Source: Eledone cirrhosa
Taxonomy: Eukaryota
Reading direction: 5' to 3'
NCBI GenBank assembly: GCA_964016885.1
Contig: OZ024766.1
Span: 20,584,001 to 20,648,000 of the forward strand
Length of the DNA stretch: 64,000 bases
Shown here: piece after piece, positions 447 to 7,000 of the stretch
Numbering within the stretch: position 1 is the stretch's first letter
Layout: each line of letters begins with the position of its first letter
The notes under the pieces: generated by a model
What the model was told of the DNA's origin: nothing
Database searches by the model: none
Seen by the model: the letters and a program-made list of their open reading frames with translations, nothing else
Position numbers and translations under genes: made by a program

Positions 447-963
447 CTGAATAGACAGAAAAAATAAACATACAGGTGTGTGTATATATATATATATATA
501 TATACATATATATATAGTTATACTTTGGGAGGGTCATGTTGCCAATAAGAAACACACACACCAGTTGCTTTCACTTCAATTTATTATAATAAATTTATAA
601 ATTTCTGGTTGGTTGGTTGGTTCCACAACCAGATAGTTGTTTATACCTAGTCATAGTTCTTTCGTCACACACTCTGTGACCTCTTCAGAACAAAGAAAGG
701 AATCCCCAGTCACTGAAGAGGTCACAGAGTGTATGACGAAAGAACTATGACTATGTATAAACAACTATCTGGTTGTGGAACCAACCAACCAACCAGAAAT
801 TTATAGATTTATTCCTAAATTTATAAATTTATTATAATAAATTGAAGTGAAAGCAACTGGTGCGTGTGTTTCTTATTGGCAACATGACCCTCCCAAAGTA
901 TAACAATATCGGTTTCAACACACGCTTTCAGATAAAGAATCTTGCTAAACAAATTCAGAAACG

Positions 964-1004
<41 letters not shown>

Positions 1005-1419
1005 TATATATGACTTTAATCTTTGTATGTAAATTACAAAGTATATATATATATTAGAAAGTGCGGCTTTTTTACAAAATGTAAAATAACCGAGGTGTCC
1101 TACACGAGTGGAAGTATAAAGAAAAAAAGATGAAATCGAAAATGCAACTGGAGTCTTATTTAAAAAAATATATATATTTATTTGGTTCCTTTACCGGTTT
1201 CGCAGTTCTTCTGCTTTTCAAAAGGTGAGTTGAGATGGAGGGTCTGTGGTTTTTCTCACATCTGAGAAAAACCACAGTGAGAAAAACCACAGACCCTCCA
1301 TCTCAACTCACCTTTTGAAAAGCAGAAGAACTGCGAAACCGGTAAAGGTACCAAATAAATATATATATTTTAAAAAAAAAAATAAGACTCCAGTTGCATT
1401 TTCGATTTCACCTCTTTTT

Positions 1420-1453
<34 letters not shown>

Positions 1454-1629
1454 GTTATTCCGGGTTGAATCGGAGGTAACCACAGTAAGTAAGGCACTCA
1501 ATACATAGCAGAGTATAAAAGTTTTAATATAGATGAGATTCTACAGGACTAGAACTATCATTCTTTAGAATTCCTGATGATTTCTAAAGAATGAAACAGT
1601 TCTAGTCCTGTAGAATCTCATCTACATTA

Positions 1630-1664
<35 letters not shown>

Positions 1665-1707
1665 CTTTAATCTTTGTATGTAAATTATATATATATATAT
1701 AACATGA

Positions 1708-1738
<31 letters not shown>

Positions 1739-3280
1739 AACGTTTGTATTTGTAAAGCCAAAACAATGCAGGTATGGACATAGAATATAAATGCAAATGC
1801 AAAAGATATTGTTGACAATTAGTCTTTTACCTTAAATTTATTTAAATATCCTTAATTTTCGAGATAATATCTCTTCTTCGGAGGGAAGTAAAGTGGTTAA
1901 ACCACCGTTCTAAATAGCTTGCCAAGTCATAAAAGAGTCTAACTGCGGCGTTCGAAGAAACCAGATGGTCAATAGATACACTCTGGTGATTAACCACGTG
2001 ATGGGATCCCCACCATGGGACCTTCACGTGCAAATCAGTTCAGTCCATTCTTTGGGACATTAAACATCCAGGTACGACCTAACTCTTCTGCACACACCAC
2101 TCCATCAATAAAATATTTGTTACGTTAATAACCATGGGTTGACATTACTCTCATACCAATAACTTGTGCAGCCGTTATCATGATAAACCAAATAATAATT
2201 GTTTCTACCATTGACACAAGGCCAGCAATTACCCAGTACATTACTGGTACTTTATTTTATCGACCCCGTAAGGATGAAAGGCAAAGTTAACCTCGACGGG
2301 ATTTGAACGAGATAAACCAAATAATAACGAGGGTTATTATAATAATTAATTGTTTCTACTTTAGGCACAAGGCCAGCAATTACCCAGTGCATTACTGGTA
2401 CTTTATTTTATCGACCCCGTAAGGATGAAAGGCAAAGTTAACCTCGGCGGGATTTGAACTCAGAATGGCAAGGGCCGTAACTCTATACGTCAAAGATTAA
2501 TGGTTTTACATCAAGTCAGAATACCACGTATCGTATATCCCGTTATTATTTGCTGCCCATGTCTCACTACCATGCAACATCGTGCTCCTCACACAGGCAT
2601 CATATAACCGGCCTTTCGTATTTGTTTAAGAGGGGCCTACTGACTGTAGGTTTCGCTTTGTGTGACCCCTTTATGAAATAAATCTGGTAAACTCTGCCCT
2701 TATGTGTTTCTGGTTGAAGGTACAACATAGAGCTGAAGAAGTTTAGAGAAATCTCAGTCACATCTGAGAAACTTCGACGTGAGAGATGGATTGAGGACAA
2801 AACTAAGATAATTAAGGTGAGTTCTACGCTTTGGGGGTTTCAGAGTGGGGGGGGGGGGGGGGGGTTCGGGGTTTCTGGGATTTCAGGGTGTCTTGCTCAT
2901 ATATATATATATATACACACATATATATACACACACACCTATATATATATATGCATACACATATATACACACATATATATATACACACACATATATACAC
3001 ACACACATATACACACCTATACACAGACACTCACATATACACACACACACACACCTACATATATACACACACATATATACACACCTATATATATACAAGA
3101 AACTTCGACGTGAGAGATGGATTGAGGACAAAACTAAGATAATTAAGGTGAGTTTCTGGGCTTTGGGGGTTTCAGAGTGGGGGGGGGGGTTTCGGGGTTT
3201 CGGGGGTGTCTTGCTCGTATATATATATATATATACACACATATATATACACACACACCTATATATATATATGCATACAC

Positions 3281-3312
<32 letters not shown>

Positions 3313-3316
3313 CTAT

Positions 3317-3348
<32 letters not shown>

Positions 3349-3962
3349 CTACATATATACACACAGACATATACACACACACACACACCTATATACACAC
3401 ACCTATACACACACACACACCTACATATATACACACACATATATACACACCTATATATACAAGAAACTTCAACGTGAGAGATGGATTGAGGACAAAACTA
3501 AGATAATTAAGGTGAGTTTCTGGGCTTTGGGGGTTTCAGAGTGTGTGTGTGGGGGGGGGGGGGTTCGGGGTTTCGGGGTTTCTAAGGCTTCTGGGGTTTC
3601 AGGGTGTCTTGCTCGTATATATATATACACACACACCTATATATATATATGCATACACATATATACACATATATATATACACACACACACATATACACAC
3701 CTATATATATACACACACATATATACACACCTATATATATATATGCATACACATATATACACACATATATATATTCACACACACACATATACACACCTAT
3801 ATATATACACACACATATATACACACCTATATATATATATATATATGCATACACACATATATATATACACACACATATATACACACCTATATATATATAT
3901 ATATGCATACACACATATATATATACACACACATATATACACACACACATATACACACCTAT

Positions 3963-4000
<38 letters not shown>

Positions 4001-7000
4001 CTACATATATACACACACATATATACACACCTATATATACACACCTATATATACAAGAAACTTCAACGTGAGAGATGGATTGAGGACAAAACTAAGATAA
4101 TTAAGGTGAGTTTCTGGGCTTTGGGGGTTTCAGAGTGGGGGGGGGGGGTTCGGGGTTTCGGGGTGTCTTGCTCGTATATATATATACACACACATATATA
4201 CACACCTATATATATATATATATGCATACACATATATACACACATATATATATACACACACACACATATACACACCTATATATATACACACACATATATA
4301 TACACACACATATATACACACCTATATATATATATATATATATGCATACACACATATATATATACACACACATATATACACACACACATACACACACCTA
4401 CATATACACACACATATACACACACACACACACCTACATATATACACACACATATATACACACCTATATATACAAGAAACTTCGACGTGAGAGATGGATT
4501 GAGGACAAAACTAAAATAATTAAGGTGAGTTTCTGGGCTTTTGGGGTTTAGGGGTTGAAAAAAAGGTGTTTCTGTCTCAGGAAATTAGCTGAAAAAAAAA
4601 AAAAAAATGTCAAGAAATCTGAAGGGCTCACTCACCTGGTTTACTGGGGCTTTGGGTTTAAAATTCCGACAGGAGTTCTCAATGTTGGACAGAGAAGCTT
4701 TCGTCTGAGGTGTCATAGCTTGGGAAGTCTTGTTGTTGGCAATGTGGTTGAGAGTGTGCGGCGTGGTAGCAAGGCTGGTGGCCGACAGGGGGCGCTGGCT
4801 GTTGAGAGTGTGCGGCGTGGTAGCAGGACTGGTGGCCACCAGGGGGCGCTGGCTGTTGAGAGTGTGTGGTGTCGTAGCAAGGCTGGTGGCCGACAGGGGG
4901 CGCTGGCTGTTGACAGTGTGTGGCGTGGTAGCAAGGCTGGTGGCCGACAGGGGGCGCTGGCTGTTGAGAGTGTGTGGTGTGGTAGCTGGACTGGTGGCCA
5001 CCAGGTGGCGCTGGCTGTTGAGAGTGTGTGGTGTGGTAGCTGGACTGGTGGCCACCAGGTGGCGCTGGCTGTTGAGAGTGTGTGGTGTGGTAGCAGGACT
5101 GGTGGCCACCAGGGGGCGCTGGCTGTTGACATTGTGTGGTGTAGTGCACAGACTGGCCACCTGGGGGTGCTGGCTGTTGACATTGTGTGGTGTAGTGCAC
5201 AGACTGGCCACCTGGGGGTGCTGGCTGTTGACACTGTGTGGCATAGTACACGGACTGGCCACCTGGGGGTGCTGGGTGTTGACACTGTGTGGCGTAGTGC
5301 ACAGACTGGCCACCTGGGGGTGCTGGGTGTTGATACTGTGTGGCATAGTACACGGACTGGCCAACAGGTTGCGCTGATTATGGCTTCTGTGAACCGTAGT
5401 AGAGGAAGTGTTGGCCACCAGGGTGCGCTGACTACTGTCGCTGTCAACCATAGCACACGGACTGCTCACCAGGTGGCGCTGGGTGTTGTCGCTGCGAGCT
5501 GTAGTACCAGGACTGCTCACCAGGTGGCGCTGGGTGTTGTCGCTGCGAGCTGTAGTACCAGGACTGCTCACCAGGTGGCGCTGGGCGTTGTCGCTGCGAG
5601 GTGTAGTACCAGGACTGCTCACCAGGTGGCGTTGGGTGTTGTCGCTGCGAGGTGTCGTACCAGGACTGCTCACCAGGTGGCGCTGGGTGTTGTCGCTGCG
5701 AGCTGTAGTACCAGGACTGCTCACCAGGTGGCGCTGGGTGTTGTCGCTGCGAGCTGTAGTACCAGGACTGCTCACCAGGTGGCGCTGGGCGTTGTCGCTG
5801 CGAGGTGTAGTACCAGGACTGCTCACCAGGTGGCGTTGGGTGTTGTCGCTGCGAGGTGTAGTACAAGAACTACTCACTAGGTGGTGCTGGGTGTTGCCCG
5901 CGGTGTTCAGTATTGCGTCCATGCTAAACACAGCAGTTCTCTGGCTTTCAAAAAAGCTGCAATAGAAATATATATATATATGTACATATAAAACCTCCAT
6001 GGAACAAACTCCCTGCATCAGTTGTTAGCTGTCGAGACACTGCATCCTTTAAAACCTCCATGGAACAAACTCCCTGCATCAGTTGTTAGCTGTCGAGACA
6101 CAGCATCCTTTAAAACCTCCATGGAACAAACTCCCTGCATCAGTTGTTAGCTGTCGAGACACTGCATCCTTTAAAACCTCCATGGAACAAACTCCCTGCA
6201 TCAGTTGTTAGCTGTCGAGACACTGCATCCTTTAAAACCTCCATGGAACAAACTCCCTGCATCAGTTGTTAGCTGTCGAGACACAGCATCCTTTAAAACC
6301 TCCATGGAACAAACTCCCTGCATCAGTTGTTAGCTGTCGAGACACTGCATCCTTTAAAACCTCCATGGAACAAACTCCCTGCATCAGTTGTTAGCTGTCG
6401 AGACACTGCATCCTTTAAAACCTCCATGGAACAAACTACCTGCATCAGTTGTTAGCTGTCGAGACACTGCATCCTTTAAAACCTTCATGGAACAAACTCC
6501 CTGCATCAGTTGTTAGCTGTTGAGACACTGCATCCTTTAAAACCTCCATGGAACAAACTACCTGCATCAGTTGTTAGCTGTTGAGACACTGCATCCTTTA
6601 AAACCTCCATGGAACAAACTGCCTGCATCAGTTGTTAGGTGTCGAGACACTGCATCCTTTAAAACCTCCATGGAACAAACTACCTGCATCAGTTGTTAGC
6701 TGTCGAGACACTGCATCCTTTAAAACCTCCATCGAACAAACTACCTGCATCAGTTGTTAGCTGTCGAGACACTGCATCCTTTAAAACCGCCATGGAACAA
6801 ACTACCTGCATCATTTTAACAACCGATGCAGGTAGTTTGTTCCATGGAGGTTTTAAAGGATGCAGTGTCTCGACAGCTAACAACTGATGCATCCTTTAAA
6901 ACCTCCATGTTTCCTGAGATTCGCCAACACTACACCTAATGTTCCCCCTCCACACACATACACACATGTATATCATGACTCATACACTGTTCACTTCCCT

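What the first reader, a model, noticed from the sequence alone, without database searches (positions are those of the whole stretch)
2720..2816. Intact downstream CEP131 exon inverted inside an upstream intron of the same gene
Seen: a 97-nt + strand exon with acceptor, GTGAGT donor and an open frame encoding YNIELKKFREISVTSEKLRRERWIEDKTKIIK. It lies between minus-strand CEP131 exons at 4636 and 446. Established (from memory): this peptide belongs to the CEP131 coiled coil far C-terminal of the IQ motif, so it should be left of this window on the minus strand. Inference, three options: (a) an inverted duplicate that could pair with the real exon in the pre-mRNA, acting as an editing-complementary sequence for ADAR (recoding is extensive in coleoids) or as a splicing/circRNA modulator; (b) the only copy, which would need trans-splicing from an antisense transcript; (c) a local assembly inversion.
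Basis: partly seen in the sequence, partly recalled or inferred. Interest (0 to 1): 0.72.

Follow-up and report, generated by a model that had tools for sequence, protein, structure and literature searches.

The report
Inverted exon copy inside CEP131 intron
A centrosome gene (CEP131) in a likely octopus genome carries a back-to-front copy of one of its own later exons inside an earlier intron, while the real exon sits in its normal place 16 kb away, so the copy is likely a recent, harmless DNA-copying accident rather than a working part of the gene.

Summary
In detail: 2720-2816 (+) is a CEP131 exon copy with AG/GT ends, in the minus-strand intron 447-4636. The native exon lies in correct order 16 kb from the copy, left of the window. 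A transcript-like contig carries the native allele, joins it to the next exon and shows no A>G change; a second contig splices the host intron out. Trans-splicing is refuted.

The copy is a 2-kb block (2550-4549): LINE stub, intron, full exon, then four tandem half-exon+donor units. It differs from the native locus at 6 of 294 bases, and the four LINE-part changes split 2/2 between the loci.

Best reading (0.75): a young, neutral, locally templated inverted duplication, later expanded in tandem. Intact splice sites and frame are expected at this age (72-89%). A near-perfect RNA duplex is possible on paper, but spans 15.8 kb and six or seven exons, and human Alu editing decays over about 800 bp. 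No read spans either junction, so misassembly is not excluded (0.10). The scan's index showed no look-alike stretch.

The parts
447..4636 (-). Host intron of CEP131
   Evidence: GT at 4636 and AG at 447-448; X1 contig joins the flanking exons
2550..4549 (+). Whole inverted duplicated block (2,000 nt). Its donor locus lies outside the window: native exon at G000:C27:20570448-20570544 (minus strand), with one native half-exon+donor tandem copy 444 nt downstream of it
   Evidence: Left end from alignment to the native locus; right end; native locus
2550..2621 (+). 72-nt stub of an RTE-like LINE, copied together with its junction from the native upstream intron; the left breakpoint cuts this LINE
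   Evidence: Many genomic copies; same LINE/intron junction in the native locus; the native continuation translates to an RT-tail-like peptide (family label recalled, no Pfam hit)
2622..2719 (+). Copied native intron with acceptor AG; 1 difference (2629)
2720..2816 (+). Full 97-nt exon copy; one synonymous difference (2759: C here, T in the native exon)
3098..3185 (+). Half-exon + donor unit 1 (3' 50 nt of the exon, then donor and G-rich tail, embedded in CA/TA microsatellite)
   Evidence: carries a donor-side variant absent from the native locus
3462..3583 (+). Half-exon + donor unit 2
4056..4168 (+). Half-exon + donor unit 3
4475..4549 (+). Half-exon + donor unit 4; right breakpoint at 4549, 87 nt inside the intron from the donor at 4636
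2496..2550 (+). Left flank: low-copy repeat cut off at the junction, with 1-3 nt of microhomology to the copied block
   Evidence: Two other genomic copies continue differently past this point

Best explanation
The block at 2550-4549 is an inverted copy of a later CEP131 exon and its flanking intron, likely made by a DNA repair or template-switch event that copied about 1 kb from 16 kb away into an earlier intron, and it is likely neutral because it is removed with that intron. Inferred order of events: (1) at the native locus the 3' half of the exon, its donor and the adjoining microsatellite were duplicated in tandem; (2) a break or stalled fork in the earlier intron copied LINE stub, intron, exon and at least one half unit in the opposite orientation, joining at 1-3 nt of microhomology; (3) the half unit in the copy picked up its own changes and expanded to four units. 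In the pre-mRNA the block reads antisense, so its splice sites cannot be used. The host intron likely leaves the transcript before or independently of the native exon 13.9 kb further on, so pairing is likely rare. Shown: both loci, the breakpoints, the differences, and normal exon joins in one transcript-like run. Inferred: mechanism, order, age and neutrality.
For: The native exon is in correct order. The copy includes intron and a LINE/intron junction, and its left end cuts a LINE in the donor and a low-copy repeat in the host site. No target-site duplication or clear poly(A) was found. There are 6 differences in 294 nt. Polarised against 13 other local LINE copies (9 aligned at each site), 2 arose in the native locus and 2 in the copy; reads of run X6 agree for the two copy-derived sites. 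All four half units share a donor-side variant found nowhere else in 924 kb, and a contig of run X2 carries that variant. All 7 of 7 genomic matches lie at these two loci, so this is not a spreading transposon capture. Random substitution keeps AG, GT and the open frame in 89%, 80% and 72% of trials for 1, 2 and 3 changes, so intactness is no sign of selection. Exon-end+donor tandem copies recur nearby, in a second CEP131 exon and in another gene 227 kb left. Five loci with low-copy inverted pairs more than 1 kb apart occur in 924 kb. The X1 contig has the native T and no other difference over 2720-2817, and the host intron is spliced out. Human Alu editing falls off over about 800 bp (PMC4066801, passages).
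Against: No read or contig spans either junction. The non-LINE part is more similar (2 of 222) than the LINE part (4 of 72), Fisher p=0.033 (post hoc, small numbers), which could reflect homogenisation or constraint. This is the longest non-local inverted pair in the CEP131 pre-mRNA, 295 nt at 98% with a predicted duplex of -569 kcal/mol against -80 and -66 for local folds, and the only one in 924 kb that I could show to hold an exon. Base pairing over 30 kb is documented in human ATE1 (PMC7797038, abstract). Contigs drop minority variants, the tissue of X1 is unknown, and its individual may lack the copy.
Confidence: 0.75

Rival explanations
1. The copy works in cis as an RNA partner. The antisense block pairs with the native exon and both its splice sites, or with its flanking introns, and drives ADAR editing, skipping of the 97-nt exon (a frameshift) or back-splicing of the six or seven exons in between, at a level that matters.
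For: 295 nt at 98% complementarity covering acceptor, exon and donor; predicted duplex -569 kcal/mol. The exon has 40 A in 97 nt. Lower divergence outside the LINE stub, p=0.033. Coleoid editing is extensive, with recoding mostly neural (PMC9068888, passages). 30-kb pairing in ATE1 (PMC7797038, abstract). Reverse complementary matches promote back-splicing and skipping in C. elegans (PMC8330042, abstract).
Against: The partners are 15.8 kb apart, and the host intron ends 13.9 kb before the exon. Editing decays over about 800 bp in human Alu data (PMC4066801). The one transcript-like contig (2,611 nt) passes through the exon with the genomic letters and includes it. Two strong local hairpins lie in the same intron (517-904 and 1119-1422; predicted -257 and -216 kcal/mol). 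The copy is young and shows no compensatory change.
Confidence: 0.08
2. The block is an assembly artefact: the other haplotype of the native locus, or a chimeric read, placed inverted in this intron.
For: No contig or read bridges either junction. The region is 64% tandem repeat. Two alleles would also differ symmetrically. The X2 contig with the variant half unit shows that it exists in DNA, not where.
Against: There is no N gap in or near the block; the only gaps in 924 kb are at +143 kb and +366 kb. The junctions share only 1-3 nt with the flanks, too little for an overlap misjoin. The left junction cuts a pre-existing repeat. The copy has five exon-end units against two, with private variants.
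Confidence: 0.1
3. The copy is used as an exon of an antisense (+ strand) transcript.
For: The splice sites and frame are intact on the + strand.
Against: No X1 contig carries the copy's C allele at 2759 (contigs show presence, not absence). Intactness is expected by chance. I found no other + strand CEP131 exons.
Confidence: 0.03
4. The copy is the only version of the exon and is used through trans-splicing.
For: None found.
Against: The native exon is present in order, and the transcript-like contig carries its allele joined to the next exon.
Confidence: 0.01

Closest known systems
Locally templated insertions / local n-jumps by template switching (PMC7025897, passages read; MMBIR and alt-EJ papers seen as search listing only)
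   Same: A short genomic segment copied from nearby, inserted in inverted orientation, with little or no junction homology; such events are reported to duplicate internal exons.
   Different: That paper describes somatic events in human cancer. This one is in a reference genome, has diverged 2%, and carries a later tandem expansion.
Inverted-repeat dsRNA substrates of ADAR (inverted Alu pairs, PMC4066801, passages) and intronic editing-complementary sequences such as that of GluA2 Q/R (PMC7045468, listing only)
   Same: A long intronic sequence complementary to another part of the same pre-mRNA, here to a coding exon.
   Different: The partner is an exon-derived copy in an upstream intron 15.8 kb away, beyond the 2-3.5 kb cut-offs that PMC4066801 cites. 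It is not shown to be conserved, and no editing was seen.
Long-range splicing structures (ATE1 R2R5, PMC7797038, abstract) and reverse complementary matches flanking circRNAs (PMC8330042, abstract)
   Same: Complementary sequence in two introns of one gene that brackets several exons.
   Different: Those are conserved and shown by mutation to alter splicing. Here neither conservation nor an effect on splicing is shown.

Membership tests
CEP131/AZI1 exon | Peptide homologous to CEP131 at the expected position | tested here: met
   105 of 120 listed homologues match; aa 971-1002 of P0004
Locally templated inverted duplication | Donor locus nearby, retained, in opposite orientation | tested here: met
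Locally templated inverted duplication | DNA-level copy (introns kept) with blunt or microhomology junctions and no target-site duplication | tested here: met
   Intron and LINE stub included; 1-3 nt microhomology at the left end; no TSD
Locally templated inverted duplication | Junctions supported by reads | tested here: inconclusive
   No contig or read spans either junction in the 6 of 8 listed runs that I laid
Retrocopy / processed pseudo-exon | Intron loss, poly(A) tail, target-site duplication | tested here: not met
   Introns kept; no TSD; only an A7 run at the right end
Transposon-captured exon (Pack-TIR type) | Dispersed copies flanked by terminal inverted repeats | tested here: not met
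   7 of 7 genomic matches are at the two loci
Editing-complementary sequence | Complementary to the exon within the same pre-mRNA | tested here: met
   98% over 295 nt, both inside the CEP131 span
Editing-complementary sequence | A-to-I editing of the partner exon that depends on the element | tested here: inconclusive
   No A>G in the single X1 contig; contigs drop minority variants; no raw RNA reads were offered
Editing-complementary sequence | Conservation across species with compensatory changes | not testable with these tools
   No related genome is held
circRNA-promoting reverse complementary match | Back-splice junction between the bracketed exons | not tested
   Both read-laying runs were used on the junction regions; only contigs were available for the transcript-like run
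Trans-spliced exon | No cis copy in the correct orientation | tested here: not met
   Native exon present and used

The most novel reading that the evidence does not exclude
A gene has written its own antisense guide. A fresh inverted copy of an exon with both splice sites, parked in an upstream intron, pairs with the native exon over 16 kb and makes CEP131 hyper-edited, exon-skipped or circularised in neurons. This would catch an editing-complementary sequence at the moment of birth and offer a one-step route to clusters of recoding sites in coleoids.
Probability: 0.08. Interest if true: 0.62.

Novelty: new member of a known kind. Interest (0 to 1): 0.2.

Why it matters
As a neutral duplication it matters little. 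It is a clear example of how exon pieces are copied locally in a microsatellite-rich cephalopod chromosome, and a trap for gene prediction and read mapping, since exon reads fit seven places. Its one real use is as a natural test: a 295-nt, 98% complementary partner for a coding exon at 16 kb, with a marker base that tells the copies apart, would show whether very long-range cis pairing can trigger ADAR editing or back-splicing in a coleoid. If it did, inverted exon duplication would be a simple way to create clustered recoding.

Tried and rejected
Trans-splicing: rejected. Retrocopy and transposon capture: rejected.

Run search: no RNA holder listed; five runs with small word shares and three RAD-seq runs by species label. 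One search was swamped by SINE and LINE reads. No piece spanned the left junction, and 4558-4627 had no cover in any run; these holes prove nothing. X2's depth of 10.5 on the variant half unit, against 2.4-2.7 on flanking contigs, fits several copies, but the tool warns that it is no copy number, and the flanking contigs are allele-specific at 4687, so I do not use it to decide zygosity.

Pfam gave 0 families for the peptide, the LINE peptide and P0004, although the homologue table lists precomputed PF27681 and PF27695. The LINE allele count had an off-by-one anchor and was discarded; one search is the corrected count.

Literature: 0 papers held all of 'inverted duplication', 'editing complementary sequence', 'exon', 'intron'. 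3 irrelevant papers held 3 of 4 terms on inverted duplicated exons. The coleoid ECS search listed no such case among the 10 shown of 54. These searches do not show that the phenomenon is unreported. No supplements were opened.

No fold or complex prediction was run, as it would not bear on the question.

Full report
Observation. The + strand at 2720-2816 has AG before and GTGAGT after and encodes YNIELKKFREISVTSEKLRRERWIEDKTKIIK from 2721. A homologue search with a neighbouring exon returned 445 proteins, of which 120 were listed. Apart from one record flagged by its source as unverified contamination, the best were octopus CEP131 at 89-90% identity, so the genome is likely an octopod but neither of those species. 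The peptide matches 105 of these 120 proteins and lies at aa 971-1002 of the 1398-aa O. sinensis protein. CEP131 runs on the minus strand from about 14,475 to -28,049 on the window ruler; negative numbers continue the ruler leftwards out of the window. The copy sits in the intron 447-4636.

The native exon. A genome search found a minus-strand match of 98% over 281 nt at G000:C27:20570434-20570714. The exon there (-13552 to -13456) lies between the exons for aa 935-969 and aa 1001-1075, in phase. Run X1 has no library record. I take it to be RNA because its contigs jump from exon to exon. One 2,611-nt contig covers 2720-2817 with a single difference, T at 2759, which is the native allele, and continues into the next exon. 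A second contig joins the exon at 4637 to the exon at 446. So the native exon is used, the host intron is removed, and no A>G change is dominant in that run. Contigs drop minority variants, so low editing would be invisible.

Anatomy of the block. Alignment to the native locus starts at 2550, inside a 72-nt stub of a high-copy repeat. In the native intron that repeat continues as a LINE fragment whose translation resembles the C-terminal end of an RTE-type reverse transcriptase (family label recalled, no Pfam hit). The LINE/intron junction is the same in both loci, so the block was copied from the native intron. Then come 98 nt of intron, the full exon, the donor, a G-rich tail and CA/TA microsatellite, and four half-exon+donor units spaced 331-594 nt apart. 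The block ends at 4549. The native locus has the full exon and one half unit 444 nt on. The half-unit junction is shared, so one half unit was copied along. The four units in the block share a donor-side variant found nowhere else in 924 kb, so they expanded afterwards. All 7 of 7 genomic matches of the exon lie at these two loci.

Divergence and junctions. Over 2550-2843 there are six differences: four in the LINE stub, one in the intron and one synonymous in the exon. Against 13 other local LINE copies (9 aligned at each site), two of the four arose in the native locus and two in the copy. The left flank (2496-2550) is a low-copy repeat whose two other genomic copies continue differently, so the junction cuts it, with 1-3 nt of microhomology. 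No target-site duplication was found. This fits a DNA-level template switch or repair event like the local templated insertions of PMC7025897 (passages read); the mechanism is inferred.

Is it real? No N gap lies near the block, the flanks share almost nothing with the donor, and the copy has private variants. A contig of run X2, which I take to be DNA, carries the variant half unit. X2-X4 may be the assembly's own sample. No read or contig spans either junction, so a misplaced haplotype keeps about 0.10.

Is it under selection? With one, two or three random substitutions the exon keeps AG, GT and its frame in 89%, 80% and 72% of 20,000 trials each, so intactness says nothing. Against my reading, the part outside the LINE stub is less diverged (2 of 222) than the stub (4 of 72), p=0.033 in a post hoc test.

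Background. In 924 kb around the window (64% tandem-masked), 54 low-copy pairs of at least 60 nt and 90% identity lie within 100 kb of each other: 39 direct and 15 inverted. The 13 inverted pairs more than 1 kb apart fall at five loci, and 8 of them are this block. Of 20 CEP131 exon blocks tested, two have tandem exon-end+donor copies and one has an inverted copy. A third such case lies in another gene 227 kb left. Local copying of exon ends is therefore recurrent here. An inverted copy of a whole exon is uncommon: I saw one in this sample, without gene annotation for most of it.

Could it act on RNA? On paper yes. The predicted duplex is -569 kcal/mol against -80 and -66 for the separate folds, and it is the longest non-local inverted pair among 40 in the CEP131 span. 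It would cover acceptor, exon and donor. But the partners are 15,836 nt apart, the host intron's acceptor lies 13,903 nt before the native exon, and six or seven exons intervene. In human Alu data editability follows 2.9*exp(-d/800)+0.25 percent (PMC4066801, passages), which is baseline at this distance; applying this to an octopod is inference. Pairing over 30 kb exists in human ATE1 (PMC7797038, abstract), and reverse complementary matches promote back-splicing and skipping in C. elegans (PMC8330042, abstract). In squid, robust recoding is mostly neural (PMC9068888, passages), and the tissue of X1 is unknown. PMC8891338 (passages) concerns clusters of edits over short distances and did not bear on this case. 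I give a functional RNA role 0.08.

Comparison and verdict. The block is built like, and meets the tested sequence features of, a locally templated inverted duplication; read support for the junctions is inconclusive. It meets only the complementarity criterion of an editing-complementary sequence. Four kinds of paper search showed no report of an inverted exon copy serving as such a partner, which is weak evidence of absence. The scan's index held no look-alike stretch. Verdict: most likely a real, young, neutral duplication, with a small chance of an RNA-level role that one RNA-seq experiment could settle. Interest 0.2.

Noticed in passing
L014 3700-3500 (window ruler about -6308 to -6529, minus strand): A second CEP131 exon also has its 3' end and donor duplicated in tandem about 150 nt downstream, inside GT-rich microsatellite (88% over 78 nt).
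   Followed up: partly
about G000:C27:20,356,900-20,358,100 (window ruler -227,100 to -225,900), minus strand: An exon ending ...QHDAQEFMAFLLDMLHE (looks like a ubiquitin-specific protease; label recalled) has two tandem copies of its last bases plus donor, each flanked by microsatellite. Spare donors downstream of exons may be a general by-product in this genome.
   Followed up: partly
native locus, L013 about position 6004 (window ruler -13996): Use of the spare donor of the native half unit would extend the exon to 541 nt through microsatellite, with the same phase as the 97-nt exon and no stop in the first 120 codons printed. No evidence of use.
   Followed up: partly
window 517-904 and 1119-1422: Two long near-perfect palindromes (MITE-like foldbacks) in the same intron, predicted -257 and -216 kcal/mol as RNA hairpins; likelier ADAR substrates than the distant pair.
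   Followed up: partly
window 2154-2199: 46 nt at 87% match, in reverse, the continuation of the repeat that is cut at the left junction (2550), which hints that the host site was itself rearranged.
   Followed up: partly
window 2191-2308 and 2341-2459: Two tandem SINE-like copies (94% over 119 nt) just left of the junction.
   Followed up: no
window 4687: Coding G/C variant in the minus-strand exon: C in X1 and X2, G in X4 and the assembly; a heterozygous site.
   Followed up: no
about G000:C27:20,346,745-20,347,455 (window ruler -237,255 to -236,545): A low-copy inverted pair of 290 nt at 99% with a 133-nt spacer; another possible foldback element.
   Followed up: no
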